Source: Pecten maximus
Lineage: Eukaryota
Assembly: GCF_902652985.1 (NCBI RefSeq)
Contig: NC_047022.1
Location: forward strand, 15,252,001-15,316,000
Direction: 5' to 3'
DNA: 64,000 nucleotides
Shown here one piece after another: positions 24,901 through 30,900 of the stretch (the first letter of the stretch is position 1; each line of letters starts with the position of its first letter). Made by a program: the position numbers.

Positions 24901-27900
24901 GCTAATGAGATCTTAAATTGTTGAATTGTGACAAAAGAATTACCCCATTTCTGCCAGAAATTCATGCAATCGTTTCTGTCCTTTGAGCGTCCAGACTTTG
25001 AACTTGCATGCCATGTTGGTTGAGTGACTGATGCTCTCAAACAGCGACCAGTGTCGATACAATGGCAGCTGGAGCTCCTCATCAAACGAGATCTTCAGGC
25101 AGTTTACAGACAGGATGTTGTCCTCGTCGTCTCTGACAAAAGTGTATAAAGAATGAGCACTTCAGGAGAAGAAAATTGATTGATAGGCCGTTTTAAATTG
25201 AAAGCACGTTTCACAGAAACATGGATCAGTACATTTCCTCAAAATTGCCTCAAATATATATATATATTTGTATTTACAGAATTATCATATGCTAATAAGC
25301 AAAGTTCAGCTTAAAAGTTGATACAACAAGGAGCCGCAAAGCTTGGCATTATCCCCCCCGCCCCGCAGTTGGTATGAAAACCCAAATACATGTATATATC
25401 AAGCTCAAACTAAAAGTTACTAAGGAAACAGTAATTTGGTATTTTTGATTAAGTTTCCATGGTGACAGAAAAAATACCAAAAATGGAAGGTCCGCAATAG
25501 CAAAAGGCACAACTAAGGCACTAGTCTGATAAATACAGAAAGTTTCAAGGAGCTGCGTTGAACAGTTTTGGAGTTATAGCCCGGAAACAGTAATTTAGTA
25601 TTTTTTATTAAGTTTCCATGGTGACAGAAAAAATACCGAAAATGGAAGTGTCGCAATAGCAAAAGTCACAACTAGGACACTAGTCTGACATATACAAAAA
25701 GTTTCAAGGAACTGCATCGAACGGTTTTTGAGTTATAGCCCGGAAAGAAAAGAAAACAGTCATTTGGTATTTTTGACTCAGTTTCCATGGTGACAGAAAA
25801 AATACCGAAAATGGAATGTCCGCAATAGCAAAAGGCACAACTAGGGCACTAGTCTGAGATATACAGAAAGTTTCAAGGAGCTGCGTTGAACGGTTATGGA
25901 GTTATAGCCCGGAAAAGAATCTTGGACGGACACACGGACGGACGGAGCCCAATTTAATATCCCCCGCAAACGCGTTTCGCGGGGGATAAATACACTTAAT
26001 TAAAATACAAAGAAGAACAAATTAGAACCTGAGAATTTTAAGTAAATAAGCAAGTTTCTGCCAATAACCAATATGCAAATAAGTGCATTCCTCTGTATCC
26101 AATCAAATAAAATATGCATAAAGAATGAGCACTTCAGGAGGAGATACACAGTGAAATATAACAAACTTCATCTTGATGGCCAAAAACAAAAAATGTCCTT
26201 TTTGAATATATAATATATGCACTTTTTTCGTAATGTAAACATAGCACAAGTAAGTTTCATGTGAGCTTTAAATTGAAAGCATTATATAAATATTTCGGAG
26301 TTACACCTTGCTCTGATAAGTTGAGTCTAAGGTTTAGTCACCTGTGGTTATGTCGAGATACGTGGGACTGTAAAGCCATGACATCATCTATGTACTTGTC
26401 CCTTGGAGTCTTGTAATGGATGAACTGGTCAGTAACTCCCAGGATAGACAACCTTTAAGCAATTGTTTGAATCAGATTAAACATTGATTTATCATATTGC
26501 AGAGCTATGAAATGTGACCTTAATGAGGCCTTGCTTTTGTCTCTTTAATCAGTACCTTATGGCCAAATTTTTAAATACGGTATAGATTGAAGTGACCAAC
26601 TTAAAACCAATTTGTTGGAAGTATGGATGGATAACTACATTAAAAAATCTCTTTTTATACTATATTAAAGTGAGGTGATCAATTCATGATAAATAAGCTT
26701 GTTCCATGAGATACAACCCTGAATTTTTTATTTTTTTTTATTTTGGTCATATGCGAAAGATCTTAAGTCAAATTCTTTGATGCTGCATTGGTCAAAGACC
26801 AAGTCTTTGGTCAAAGATAAAGTTTAAACAAGATAATGTACAGAAGGACACAATGCAGAACTATAGACCCCTCTCCACTCCCCCTTTGGTTCCCCATGGG
26901 GGACTAATACTTGGTTCTGCATTCTCAGAGGGATGCGATACTTTAAGCATCATACAATTCTGTAATGTAATAGTTTATACTTAACTATGACCTAAATAAT
27001 GATGTAACCCGATTTTATAAATAGTCAAACAGAGTTAATTAACATTTCACATAAATTGTACTTCTACTTACCATAACAGGTCATTTGTATCCTTGGACAT
27101 TTTCCATGCCAGTTCGAAAATAAGCAAGGCTGCCTATAAAATATAAATGTATACATTATACATAAATTTGTTTTTCTTATTCTCAAATGAATATTTAACT
27201 TTATAACCACTATTATTACCAATTTAATAGCATTTTATTATTTCATTAAAGAAAATTCTACAGATTATCTAAAATGCTCATACATGTATCGACATATGTA
27301 TCTGATTTGATAGATGTTAAAAACATACAGGGAAACTGAATTCAAACATATAAATCCATACTTATCAAAGACAAATGGGGGTTTAGCAAGGGCAAACAGG
27401 GGTCTGTTACATTTTATTTGATCATGTTACAGTATCTAGATACTGTAACATGACATTACAATGCTATCTTAATCAAATGCAAGAGGCCCATGGGCCTTAA
27501 CGTCACCTGATATTTGAAATATTTCACTTAATCTAATTGAACCGTTTTGGCCTCACCCATCAGTCCAAGGGGTCAGTAAGGGCCAACATGTGCATATCAT
27601 TAAGCTGGCATCCCATGCTGATAATTTTAAGAAAGTTAGAATGAATTCCAATAGAAATCAAACAAATGATTGTCAAAAATGTGATTTCCCTATATAAACT
27701 ATCGCAAAGTTTACCCTCTCCCAAGGGGCAAAACGTGCGACCCCAGGGTCATGAAATTCACAATTTAAGTAAAGCACCATAAGACCCTTCCATCTATGAA
27801 AAGTATTTGATTCTACCATATATTAAGAGTACTAAGAAGATTTTTGAAACTTCAGCCAATTTGACCCTTTTTAGCCCGGCCCATCAGCCCCTGGGGGTCA

Positions 27901-30900
27901 GTAAGGGCCAACATGTGCATACCATCAAACTTTTATCCCATGCTGATAATGTTAACCAAGTTAGAATGAATTCCAATACAAATCCAACAAATGAAAGTCA
28001 AAAATGTGATTCCACTATATAAACTATAGTAAAGTTTACCTCCTACCCAGGGGCAAACGCGAGACACCAGGGTCATGAAATTCACAATTTTGGTAAAGCA
28101 CCATAAGACCCTTCTATCTATGAAAAGTATTTGATTCTATCTTATATGGGTATTGAGAAGAAGATTTCTGAAATTTCAGTCAATTTGACCCTTTTTAGCC
28201 CCACCTCTCAGGTCTGTGGGGGTTGGGACCATATAATTCACAATTTTGGTTGACCTTCAGCTATAGAAGCTTTCTGCTAAATTTCATTGAATTTGGTTAA
28301 GCAGTTTTGGAGAAGAAGTCGAAAATGTAAATTGTTTACAGACGGATGACGGACAACGACAGACAACGACAGACAAAAGGCGATTAGAATAGGTCTCTTG
28401 AGACTTTGTCTCAGGTGACATAAAAATTAATCATATTCAAAATATAAAATCATTTTACATCTTTGTAGCAATAAATATTTATAGGAGTGGATAAGTTTTG
28501 GAGTCTGACAAAAATATCAGTTTGCTCATTCATACCAGATTTCAGCTTAAAAGTTGATGCAAATACACTTAATTAAAATACAAAGAAGAACAAATTAGAA
28601 CCTGAGAATTTTAAATAAATAAGCAGGTTTCTGCAAATAACCAATATGCAAATAAGTGCATTCCTCTGTATCCAATCAAATAAAATATGCATAAAGAATG
28701 AGCACTTCAGGAGAAGATACACAGTGAAATATAACAAACTTCATCTTAAATGCCAAAAACAGAAAATGTCCTTTTTGAATATATAATATATGCACTTTTT
28801 TTCGTAATGTAAACATAGCACAAGTAAGTTTCATGTGAGCTTTTAATTGAAAGCATTATATAAATATTTTGGAGTTACACCTTGCTCTGATAAGTTGAGT
28901 CTAAGGTTTAGTCACCTGTGGTTATGTCGAGATACGTGGGACTGTAAAGCCATGACATCATCTATGTACTTGTCCCTTGGAGTCTTGTAATGGATGAACT
29001 GGTCAGTAACTCCCAGGATAGACAACCTTAAAGCATTTGTTTGAATCAGATTAAACATTGATTTATCATATTGCAGAGCTATGAAATGTAACCTTAATGA
29101 AGCCTTGCTTTATGTCTCTTTAATCAGTACCTTATGGCCAAATTTTTAAATACGGTATAGATTGAAGTGACCAACTTAAAACCAATTTGTTGGAATTATG
29201 GATGAATGAATACATCAAAAAAATTCTTTTAATACTATATTAAAGTGAGGTGATCAATTCATGATAAATAAGCTTGTTCCACGAGATACAACCCTGAATT
29301 TTTATTTTTTTTTATTTTGGTCATATGCGAAAGATCCTAAGTCAAATTCTTTGATGTTGCATTGGTCAACGATAAAGTTTAGACAAGATAATGTACAGAA
29401 GGACACTATGCAAAACTATAGACCCCTCTCCACTCCCCCTTTGGTTCCCCATGGGGGACTAATACTTGCTTCTGCATTCTCAGAGGGATGCGATACTTTA
29501 AGTATCACACAATTCTGTAATGTAATAGTTTATACTATGACCTAAATAATGATGTAACCCGATTTTATAAATAACCAGAGTTAATTAACATTTTACATCA
29601 ATTGTACTTCTACTTACCATAACAGGTCATTTGTATCCTTGGACATTTTCCATGCCAGTTCAAAAATAAGCAAGGCTGCCTATAAAATATAAATGTATAC
29701 ATTAAACATAAATTTGTTTTTCTTATTCTCGAATGAATATTTAACTTTATAACCACTATTATTACCAATTTAATAGCATTTTATTATTTTATTAAAGAAA
29801 ATTCTACAGATTATCTAAAATGCTCATCCATGTATCTACATATGTATATGATTTGATAGATTTTAAAAACATACAGGAAAACTGAATTCAAACATATTAA
29901 TCCATACTTATCAAAGACAAATGGGGGTTTAGCAAGGGCAAATAGGGGTCTGTTACATTTTATTTGATTAATTATATAAAATTACATTGTAATGTCATGT
30001 TACAGCATCTAGATACTGTAACATGACATTACAATGTTGTCTTAATCAAATGCAAGAGGCCCATGGGCCTTAACGGTCACCTGATATTTGAAATATTTCA
30101 CTTAATCTAATTTAACCGTTTTGGCCTCACCCATCAGTCCAAGGGGTCAGTCGGGGCCAACATGTGCATATCATTAAGCTGGCATCCCATGCTGATAATT
30201 TTAAGAAAGTTAGAATGAATTCCAATAGAAATCAAACAAATGATTGTCAAAAATGTGATTTCCCTATATAAACTATAGCAATAAACCCCGCAAACAAATA
30301 AATCTTTAAAAGTAATAGGTCTCAGTTCCACTATTTTAACTGGACATTAACTCCTACATACTGTAAACATGAAAATTAAAAACCCTTGTGGAAATAGCCA
30401 TGTTTACAGTAAAAACAGATACTGAAGTAAAGAGAGGTTATTCTGATATGTCTGAAAACTTAATATTGAAGAGAAACTAATATACAAGTTACATAATTTA
30501 ATACTTACTGCTGTTCCATATGTAGAAAATTGGGAATATTCAAATAACAACTTGGACCTGAAACCCAACAATAAATTACATTAAAAATTGAGAACAATGA
30601 AGTCCAAACATATAAATTTAACAGGAGTTGCCAGAAGACAACATATCTCGCCGGATCGTTGAAATTCAGAATTATATTTTAAAAGTAGTTCAAAGGTCAC
30701 GGTCAAGGTCAGCAGGTCCACAAATGTAGCATCAATGGAAAGGTCAGCTAAACATGGCTTTAACAATGGATATGTATGTTTCTACCACAATACGCTGTGT
30801 TATTCCACTCTCAAGCCATTGTATAAGTGTGCAGACTGTTGGATATATATATATTATATTCCACTAGTGGAATATAACCTTCGGTCTTTTGATTGGTCAA

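What the first reader, a model, noticed from the sequence alone, without database searches (positions are those of the whole stretch)
25303..30280. CDC45 exons 8-9 tandemly duplicated, and including both copies breaks the frame
Seen: both copies keep intact splice sites and encode the same peptide (one synonymous difference), while their introns have diverged. The pair totals 173 nt, so 8A-9A-8B-9B frameshifts this essential replication gene; only 8A-9A, 8B-9B or 8A-9B are productive. Inference: either a real young duplication needing mutually exclusive splicing (with NMD-based dosage control possible), or two allelic haplotypes assembled in tandem, which is common in heterozygous mollusc assemblies.
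Basis: partly seen in the sequence, partly recalled or inferred. Interest (0 to 1): 0.65.

Follow-up and report, generated by a model that had tools for sequence, protein, structure and literature searches.

The report
Doubled CDC45 exons, probably assembly artefact
Two near-identical copies of two exons of the DNA-replication gene CDC45 lie one behind the other in this assembly, and they look more like the animal's two alleles laid end to end than like a working duplication, though only sequencing reads can settle it.

Summary
CDC45 lies on the minus strand (about 20.4-37.85 kb). A 1.72-kb piece carrying a 62-nt and a 111-nt exon occurs twice: copy 1 at 28541-30281 (transcribed first) and copy 2 at 25305-27707. 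All four exons keep AG/GT splice sites. The exon 9 copies are identical and the exon 8 copies differ by one synonymous base (TTT/TTC). Including all four adds 173 nt and gives a TAG inside the second exon 9.

It is not a simple head-to-tail duplication. An 833-nt spacer completes a repeat element that is whole after copy 2 and cut off after copy 1. A 661-nt element sits in copy 2 only, about 22 nt from the block's edge. Non-exon sequence differs by 3.5% plus eight small indels, while the exons differ at one synonymous base.

This layout is what two alleles placed in series would give (flank, copy 2, spacer, copy 1, flank). My best reading is a false exon gain, confidence 0.55.

Against it: the window has no N, and kilobase-long minisatellite arrays are resolved, so the junction lies inside a contig.

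A real duplication (about 0.35) would probably act as a hypomorphic allele or need pairwise exclusive splicing. Reads were not available, so interest is low.

The parts
30509..30557 (-). CDC45 coding exon 7 (49 nt, ends on a complete codon), single copy, 227 nt upstream of the repeated block
   Evidence: Read: acceptor tttcag|GTCC, donor GCA|gtaagt. Recognised by eye as the stretch preceding exon 8. No Pfam hit on its own (protein 6).
28541..30281 (-). Copy 1 of the repeated block (transcribed first): 602 nt of intron 7, exon 8.1, intron 8, exon 9.1 and 375 nt of intron 9
29618..29679 (-). Exon 8.1 (62 nt; TTT Phe variant)
   Evidence: splice sites tatag|GCAGCC and TTATG|gtaagt. The peptide is the same as that of exon 8.2, which hits only CDC45 chains in the PDB.
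28916..29026 (-). Exon 9.1 (111 nt), identical to exon 9.2
   Evidence: Pfam CDC45 E = 1.7e-5, profile positions 246-286.
27708..28540 (.). 833-nt spacer between the copies. It continues the repeat element that begins in copy 2 (324-nt internal repeats up to 28205, inverted end at about 28418), followed by about 122 nt of unique AT-rich sequence. It has no counterpart after copy 1.
   Evidence: No homology to the sequence right of copy 1 (42 of 50 shuffles reach the observed score for the whole spacer, 80 of 200 for its tail).
27503..28418 (.). Repeat element with 9-nt inverted ends (GTCACCTGA ... TCAGGTGAC) and two 324-nt internal repeats. Copy 1 holds only its first 205 nt (30077-30281).
   Evidence: (family D1). 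One published BIV160 primer matches 27685-27702 at 17 of 19 positions.
25305..27707 (-). Copy 2 of the repeated block: 574 nt of intron-7-like sequence, exon 8.2, intron 8, exon 9.2 and intron 9 sequence including a copy-specific insertion
27072..27133 (-). Exon 8.2 (62 nt; TTC Phe variant)
   Evidence: PDB: 6 of 6 hits are CDC45, best E = 3.6e-5. No Pfam hit at E <= 0.01 for this 21-aa peptide.
26342..26452 (-). Exon 9.2 (111 nt)
   Evidence: Pfam CDC45 E = 2.2e-5, profile positions 251-286. PDB: 6 of 6 hits are CDC45, best E = 4.8e-7.
26388..26390 (-). TAG reached if all four exons are spliced in. It lies 46 nt before the exon 9.2 donor, with many exon junctions downstream.
25327..25987 (.). 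661-nt insertion present in copy 2 only. It holds three tandem units of about 160-169 nt and ends in a palindromic hairpin. It lies about 22 nt from the left edge of the block.
   Evidence: (family D2).
24943..25135 (-). CDC45 coding exon 10, single copy. It accepts the 2 nt left over from exon 9.
   Evidence: Pfam CDC45 E = 8.7e-19, profile positions 293-351. Acceptor ttttgtcag|AGACG.
29984..30037 (-). Palindrome in the intron upstream of exon 8.1 (25-bp stem, -37.8 kcal/mol as RNA). Its shorter counterpart upstream of exon 8.2 is at 27422-27453 (15-bp stem, -19.1 kcal/mol).

Best explanation
The sequence really contains exons 8 and 9 of CDC45 twice. Most likely the two copies are the two alleles of one locus in a highly heterozygous animal, written one after the other by the assembly. 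This is a 'false exon gain' from a heterotype false duplication.

On this reading, allele H1 is left flank, copy 2 (with its 661-nt element), 833-nt spacer, right flank. Allele H2 is left flank, copy 1, right flank. The contig carries left flank, copy 2, spacer, copy 1, right flank.

Each real chromosome would then have one exon 8 and one exon 9, an intron 7 of about 1.6 kb or 0.8 kb, and an intron 9 of about 1.2 kb or 0.5 kb. No special splicing would be needed.

What is shown: the anatomy, the divergence and the frame arithmetic. What is inferred: that the tandem order does not exist in the animal's DNA.
For: (1) The layout is not a clean head-to-tail duplication. An 833-nt spacer (27708-28540) lies between the copies. 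It completes a repeat element that starts inside copy 2, while copy 1 stops 205 nt into the same element and runs straight into unrelated sequence. 'Arm with the insertion, then arm without it' reproduces this layout with no further event. A real origin needs a duplication plus a deletion, or a two-junction event.

(2) The other edge of the block lies about 22 nt from the second large difference, a 661-nt element present in copy 2 only. By my estimate, a random later insertion would fall this close to any of the four copy ends about 2.5% of the time. Alignment between two haplotypes tends to break at exactly such places.

(3) The copies differ as diverged alleles would. There are 54 substitutions in 1691 columns and 8 small indels, spread evenly in 100-nt bins.

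(4) The exons differ at 1 of 173 sites, against 53 of 1518 non-exon sites (binomial P = 0.016, Fisher P = 0.020). The one difference is synonymous. So both copies come from functional versions of the gene.

(5) All four exons carry the same donors and almost the same acceptors. Default splicing of a real tandem would therefore include all four and reach a stop codon. That is a heavy cost for a gene that is essential (established knowledge, not tested here).

(6) This is the only long non-satellite direct repeat in the 64-kb window.

(7) Precedent read in passages. Ko et al. 2022 (PMC9516828) define false exon gain and tie false duplications to heterozygosity. A PacBio eastern-oyster assembly had haplotigs nested inside chimeric contigs. 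[quoted passage not shown]
Against: There is no N anywhere in the window, so no assembly gap lies between the copies. [quoted passage not shown]

The window resolves long minisatellite arrays with few indels: 31 nt x 97.7 copies, 43 nt x 36.1 copies and others. This suggests a long-read contig, possibly from accurate reads. Single reads would then span the whole 5-kb structure, and a string-graph assembler has no obvious way to put two 3%-diverged arms in series. If the contig comes from such an assembly, this reading drops sharply.

The nested haplotigs reported for the oyster were found with 100-kb windows, not at a 2-3 kb scale.

No read, depth or k-mer data could be examined. The 2.5% figure is my own rough estimate, and repeat elements could themselves have caused a real rearrangement at these sites.
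Confidence: 0.55

Rival explanations
1. A real duplication present on one chromosome of the sequenced animal, whose two copies were already diverged when it formed. It could have arisen by non-allelic exchange or template switching between the two homologues in a heterozygous parent, joining allele H1 at the end of the spacer to allele H2 at the start of the block. With four equally good exons the main transcript would include all four, hit the stop codon in exon 9.2 and be degraded or give a truncated protein. The duplication would then be a hypomorphic or null CDC45 allele carried over a normal one.
For: It gives the same layout and the same allele-like divergence and exon conservation as the artefact reading. 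It also agrees with the gap-free, long-read-like contig. Widespread structural heterozygosity in molluscs is reported by Calcino et al. (preprint 10.1101/2020.09.15.298695; abstract only).
Against: It needs an uncommon mechanism. Most tandem duplications arise between sister chromatids and start out identical (general knowledge, not tested here). It also needs a damaging allele of an essential gene to be the one assembled. The closeness of the junction to the 661-nt element site remains a coincidence unless heterology itself provoked the switch. No data here separate it from the artefact.
Confidence: 0.2
2. A real, older, fixed duplication that diverged in place and is tolerated because splicing uses only one exon 8 and one exon 9 per transcript (8.1-9.1, 8.2-9.2 or 8.1-9.2). 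Transcripts with all four exons would be removed by nonsense-mediated decay, which could also set the CDC45 dose. It could have arisen when the repeat element next to copy 2 carried its flanking DNA to a site 122 nt upstream, or by a duplication followed by a deletion. Pairing between the palindromes upstream of each exon 8 could loop out the first pair.
For: Intact splice sites and one synonymous change in 173 exon nt suggest that neither pair has been free to decay. Joint inclusion breaks the frame, as in many exclusive exon clusters. A hairpin-forming palindrome was duplicated with the block, and Ivanov and Pervouchine propose that this kind of event creates competing RNA structures (PMC6071210; abstract and Discussion read). 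Copy 1 ends inside the repeat element, as a truncated element carrying flanking DNA would. The contig has no gap.
Against: The two pairs encode the same peptide, so there is nothing to select for. Donors are identical and acceptors nearly so, so nothing in the sequence predicts skipping. Each palindrome folds on itself far better than across copies: a 25-bp local stem at -37.8 kcal/mol, against at most about 15 bp available between copies. A frame-breaking insert in an essential gene should be purged in a large population. If one pair were always skipped, about 3.8 exon differences would be expected (my estimate) against 1 seen. The layout needs two events or a complex one, and the position of the 661-nt insertion is an unexplained coincidence.
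Confidence: 0.15

Closest known systems
False exon gain by heterotype false duplication (Ko et al. 2022, Genome Biol 23:205, PMC9516828; passages read)
   Same: One or more exons are repeated next to themselves within one gene. The copies differ like haplotypes. It is linked to high heterozygosity and causes frame and annotation errors.
   Different: [quoted passage not shown] Here there is no N, and depth and read pairs could not be examined. Their supplementary figures, which show depth-gap cases, were not seen.
Allelic haplotigs nested in contigs of the eastern oyster PacBio assembly, including the alternative oxidase pair (preprint 10.1101/2022.08.29.505626; passages read)
   Same: It is a bivalve long-read assembly. 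It has two copies of a normally single-copy gene that are nearly identical in coding sequence with differing introns, and these were shown by PCR to be alleles. Haplotig segments sit inside contigs.
   Different: Those segments were detected at a scale of 100 kb or more and concern whole genes. Here the block is 1.7-3.2 kb inside one gene. That this window is from a bivalve is not established.
Mutually exclusive exon clusters born from tandem exon duplication (Ivanov and Pervouchine 2018, PMC6071210; further titles and abstracts listed)
   Same: Tandem homologous exons with their flanking introns and splice sites. Joint inclusion breaks the frame. A stem-loop was duplicated along with the exons.
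   Different: Known clusters swap one exon for a diverged homologue and change the protein. Here a pair of exons is repeated and both pairs encode the same peptide. No transcript evidence and no conservation could be tested.

Membership tests
CDC45 gene (Pfam PF02724) | Exon peptides match the CDC45 profile in colinear order | tested here: met
   3 of 5 queries hit CDC45 (both exon 9 copies at profile 246/251-286, exon 10 at 293-351). The two misses were exon 8 references that I had set out of frame; 7 of 10 exon ORFs hit CDC45, E from 1.9e-5 to 0.061, at profile 1-23, 18-49, 52-83, 352-384, 386-419, 469-519 and 541-573, in gene order. The three misses are the ORFs I took for exons 5, 6 and 7.
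CDC45 gene (Pfam PF02724) | The duplicated exons themselves are CDC45 sequence | tested here: met
   PDB search. Exon 8 peptide: 6 of 6 hits are CDC45 chains, best E = 3.6e-5, chain residues about 199-234. Exon 9 peptide: 6 of 6 are CDC45, best E = 4.8e-7, residues about 220-258, directly following. Exon 8 in the correct frame had no Pfam hit at E <= 0.01.
CDC45 gene (Pfam PF02724) | One uninterrupted reading frame across the spliced exons | not tested
Phases at exons 7/8, 8/9 and 9/10 were checked by hand. The last exon was not located.
Heterotype false duplication / false exon gain | Assembly gap, or a stretch unsupported by reads, between the copies | tested here: not met
   No N in the 64-kb window. 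A 'depth gap' cannot be tested without reads.
Heterotype false duplication / false exon gain | About half read depth on each copy and haplotype-specific k-mers | not testable with these tools
   No reads are available.
Heterotype false duplication / false exon gain | No read or read pair supports the junction | not testable with these tools
   No reads are available. The junction is 28540|28541.
Heterotype false duplication / false exon gain | The copies differ as two alleles would, and the layout equals two arms in series between shared flanks | tested here: met
   3.19% substitutions, 8 small indels and two large copy-specific indels at or near the block edges. Homology stops at both edges. 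A real exchange between alleles would give the same result.
Simple head-to-tail tandem duplication | The second unit begins where the first ends, and both units have the same extent | tested here: not met
   The 833-nt spacer follows copy 2 only. No counterpart exists after copy 1 or before copy 2.
Mutually exclusive exon cluster from tandem exon duplication | Tandem homologous exons of equal length and phase with intact splice sites | tested here: met
Mutually exclusive exon cluster from tandem exon duplication | Joint inclusion is unproductive | tested here: met
   173 nt is 2 modulo 3. TAG at 26390-26388.
Mutually exclusive exon cluster from tandem exon duplication | The alternatives encode different peptides | tested here: not met
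   The exon 9 copies are identical. The exon 8 copies differ by one synonymous base.
Mutually exclusive exon cluster from tandem exon duplication | Competing docking and selector RNA pairings | tested here: inconclusive
   A palindrome lies upstream of each exon 8. Pairing between the two copies is possible (42 nt at 97.6%), but the local hairpins are much stronger.
Mutually exclusive exon cluster from tandem exon duplication | Transcripts carry one alternative only, and the arrangement is conserved in relatives | not testable with these tools
   There is no RNA data. The protein and contig collections that could hold relatives are closed or cover only bacteria and archaea.

The most novel reading that the evidence does not exclude
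The tandem is real and fixed. An essential replication-initiation gene would then carry a duplicated two-exon cassette encoding the same peptide twice, and every productive mRNA would have to skip one exon 8 and one exon 9. The four-exon form would go to nonsense-mediated decay and act as a built-in limiter of CDC45 dose. This would be pairwise exclusive splicing with no protein diversity.
Probability: 0.12. Interest if true: 0.6.

Novelty: not a real feature. Interest (0 to 1): 0.22.

Why it matters
If it is an artefact, the value is practical. Gene predictors will produce a frameshifted or split CDC45 model here, or a spurious 'alternative' isoform. The locus is also a small, gap-free example of a false exon gain that gap-based screens would miss.

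If it is real, it would be one of two things. It could be a natural damaging allele of an essential replication gene carried in a wild animal. Or it could be an early stage in the birth of exclusive exons, before the copies have diverged in protein sequence. The second case would be worth an RNA-seq check.

Tried and rejected
I switched to stop-free ORFs chosen from script listings.

(b) My first exon 8 references (27070-27135 and 29616-29681) were one base out of frame, so their lack of hits means nothing. In the correct frame the 21-aa peptide still has no Pfam hit at E <= 0.01, but it hits only CDC45 chains in the PDB.

(c) Extending the homology beyond the block failed. A first alignment suggested 25276-25302 against 28508-28540. 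With the strong core removed the score is at chance (119 of 200 shuffles reach it). The spacer tail against the right flank is also at chance (80 of 200), as is the whole spacer against the right flank (42 of 50).

(d) A simple tandem duplication, and unequal crossing-over between flanking repeats, were rejected. No third copy of the repeat element or of the spacer lies left of copy 2 or right of copy 1.

(e) Gene conversion as the reason for the exon identity was rejected. Divergence is even along the block, 0-8 mismatches per 100 nt, with no long identical tract around the exons.

(f) A pseudogene reading was rejected. The CDC45 exon ORFs I examined contain no stop codons, and most match the profile in order.

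(g) The two published BIV160 primers found nothing at up to 3 mismatches. A whole-window fuzzy search timed out. A local alignment restricted to 25300-30300 gave one primer at 17 of 19 positions (0 of 100 shuffles reach it) and the other near chance (10 of 100).

(h) No search of related genomes was possible, so the taxon and the state of the locus in relatives stayed unchecked. The one scan of bacterial and archaeal contigs was not used because it is irrelevant here.

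
Full report
**What is there**

The window carries a CDC45 gene on the minus strand, from about 37.85 kb (an ORF with the start codon, 37754-37843) down to about 20.4 kb.

Taken one at a time, stop-free ORFs covering the exons hit Pfam CDC45 (PF02724) in gene order.
- In one search, 7 of 10 ORFs hit, at profile positions 1-23, 18-49, 52-83, 352-384, 386-419, 469-519 and 541-573.
- In one search, both exon 9 copies hit (246/251-286), and so did exon 10 (293-351, E = 8.7e-19).
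- The ORFs I took for exons 5, 6 and 7 gave no CDC45 hit. I recognised them, and exons 1, 13, 15 and 17, only by eye from a general recollection of CDC45 proteins.

The overall reading frame therefore rests on hand-checked phases at exons 7/8, 8/9 and 9/10.

I do not take the window for human. The exon 9 peptide shares 20 of 36 aligned residues with the human chain, and the introns are full of invertebrate-type repeats. There is one weak pointer: a published bivalve BIV160 satellite primer matches the repeat element in the spacer at 17 of 19 positions (0 of 100 shuffles reach that score), while the second primer is near chance (10 of 100).

**The observation**

A 1.72-kb block occurs twice in direct orientation: 25988-27707 against 28561-30281, 93.6% identical over 1750 columns (repeat finder gives the same blocks). 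A global alignment has 1691 aligned columns, 54 mismatches (3.19%) and 8 gap events totalling 59 nt. The homology resumes at 25305-25326 against 28541-28562, on the other side of a 661-nt insertion found in the lower copy only.

I call the copy that is transcribed first copy 1 (28541-30281) and the other copy 2 (25305-27707).

Exons:
- 8.1 at 29618-29679 and 8.2 at 27072-27133, 62 nt each.
- 9.1 at 28916-29026 and 9.2 at 26342-26452, 111 nt each.

All four have AG acceptors and GT donors. The donors are identical over 15 nt. The exon 8 acceptors are identical over the last 22 nt. The exon 9 acceptors differ at positions -10 and -4.

The exon 9 copies are identical. The exon 8 copies differ at one base, TTT against TTC, both Phe.

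The exon 8 peptide hits only CDC45 chains in the PDB (6 of 6, best E = 3.6e-5), and so does exon 9 (6 of 6, best E = 4.8e-7), at adjoining residues.

62 + 111 = 173 nt. With all four exons included, exon 8.2 stays open in the shifted frame and exon 9.2 reaches TAG at 26390-26388, 46 nt before its donor.

**Anatomy beyond the observation**

The structure is: left flank, copy 2, 833-nt spacer (27708-28540), copy 1, right flank.

The spacer is not filler. It continues a repeat element that begins at 27503 inside copy 2, has 324-nt internal repeats and ends at about 28418 with a 9-nt inverted copy of its start. About 122 nt of unique AT-rich sequence follow. Copy 1 has only the first 205 nt of that element (30077-30281, 98% identical to copy 2) and then runs into unrelated sequence. 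Exon 7 lies 227 nt further on (30509-30557).

Nothing homologous to the spacer follows copy 1 or precedes copy 2, and the homology does not extend past either edge (42 of 50, 80 of 200 and 119 of 200 shuffles reach the observed scores). None of these elements has another copy elsewhere in the window. This block is also the only long non-satellite direct repeat in the 64 kb.

So a clean head-to-tail duplication is excluded. A real origin needs one of three things:
- a duplication of block plus spacer, followed by a deletion of at least 833 nt after copy 1;
- a two-junction copy-and-paste event;
- transport of flanking DNA by the repeat element.

**How the copies differ**

Substitutions are spread evenly, 0-8 per 100 nt. 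The small indels are 1, 1, 1, 19, 5, 4, 27 and 1 nt long.

The two large differences sit at or near the block edges:
- the 833-nt spacer at the right edge;
- the 661-nt element (three units of about 160-169 nt and a terminal hairpin), about 22 nt from the left edge.

The exons show 1 difference in 173 nt, against 53 in 1518 non-exon nt (binomial P = 0.016, Fisher P = 0.020), and the one difference is synonymous.

**Interpretation**

These features are what two diverged, functional alleles of one locus look like. The layout is exactly what results if allele H1 (copy 2 plus spacer) and allele H2 (copy 1) are written in series between shared flanks. No extra event is needed, and the block edges fall where alignment between the two alleles breaks down.

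A real tandem also carries a cost. With four equally good exons, default splicing should include all of them, break the frame and remove most productive mRNA of an essential replication gene (essentiality is established knowledge, not tested here).

Published precedent, read in passages:
- Ko et al. 2022 define 'false exon gain' and link false duplications to heterozygosity.
- A PacBio oyster assembly had haplotigs nested inside chimeric contigs. It also had a gene pair 98% identical in coding sequence with differing introns, which PCR showed to be allelic.
- Widespread structural heterozygosity in molluscs is reported by Calcino et al. (abstract only).

My best reading is therefore an assembly artefact, at 0.55.

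**What speaks against it**

The window has no N. [quoted passage not shown] I did not see their supplementary figures of such cases.

The window also resolves minisatellite arrays of 3.0 kb (31 nt x 97.7 copies), 1.55 kb (43 nt x 36.1 copies) and others, with 0-1% indels. This suggests a long-read contig, possibly from accurate reads, in which single reads would span the whole 5-kb structure. If so, the tandem is probably real. This is the main reason my confidence is not higher.

**Rivals**

(1) A real tandem made from two already diverged alleles, by exchange or template switching between homologues (0.2). It would explain the same sequence features and the gap-free contig. It would most likely be a hypomorphic or null CDC45 allele carried over a normal one.

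(2) An old, fixed duplication kept harmless by using one exon 8 and one exon 9 per transcript, with the four-exon form removed by nonsense-mediated decay (0.15). A palindrome upstream of each exon 8 was duplicated with the block. It could in principle pair across the copies (42 nt at 97.6%) and loop out the first pair, as in the model of Ivanov and Pervouchine. But each palindrome folds on itself much more strongly (-37.8 and -19.1 kcal/mol). Both pairs encode the same peptide, so there is nothing to select. Nothing in the splice sites predicts skipping.

**Comparison with what is known, and novelty**

As an artefact, this is a small gap-free instance of a known error class, not a biological feature. 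As a real structure, it would be a new member of the known class of tandem exon duplications. It would be unusual in repeating a two-exon cassette without any change in the protein.

**What stayed unchecked**

Reads, depth, transcripts, other individuals and related species were all unavailable, as was the way the contig was assembled. The decisive test is whether single long reads cross 28540|28541 with unique anchors on both sides.

Noticed in passing
window 25121-25172 against 26089-26144 and 28688-28717: The 30 nt just upstream of the exon 10 acceptor (the pyrimidine tract and branch-point region) recur inside intron 9 of both copies, about 200 nt downstream of each exon 9 donor. Identity is 93-97%, and an AG follows. 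This may be a relic of an older local duplication or a decoy acceptor. It is older than the split between the two copies.
   Followed up: partly
window 14254-15105, plus strand: Two long ORFs match Pfam Tektin (E = 2e-47 at profile 268-382 and E = 9.9e-24 at profile 196-271). This is the 3' part of a tektin gene converging on the 3' end of CDC45.
   Followed up: partly
window 27537-28205 and 30100-30278: The 324-nt internal repeats of the spacer element carry a stretch matching a published BIV160 satellite primer at 17 of 19 positions. 324 is about twice the 160-nt monomer. This hints at a pearl-type, satellite-bearing element of bivalves (PMC5139131, passages read). The second primer is near chance.
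   Followed up: partly
window 31931-32095 and 34343-34508: An inverted repeat pair (87% over 167 nt) lies in CDC45 introns 6 and 2, bracketing exons 3-6. Arrangements like this can promote back-splicing.
   Followed up: no
window 31084-31223: A 134-nt near-perfect palindrome (92.5%) lies in CDC45 intron 6. It is probably a small inverted-repeat element.
   Followed up: no
window 23857-23976: Two tandem 59-61-nt units (97% identical) lie directly upstream of the CDC45 exon that matches profile 386-419, inside the same open frame (23735-23971).
   Followed up: no
window 40835-41428, 46446-47997, 49895-50680, 51492-52273, 52761-55777, 56278-56598: A dense run of minisatellite arrays lies upstream of CDC45, with units of 60, 43, 22, 39, 31 and 51 nt and up to 97.7 copies. 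All are resolved without gaps. The long ORFs there are repeat translations, not genes.
   Followed up: partly
window 35594-35998, minus strand: A 135-aa open frame with 49% G+C lies in CDC45 intron 2 and has no Pfam match at E <= 0.01. It may be a fragment of a mobile element.
   Followed up: partly
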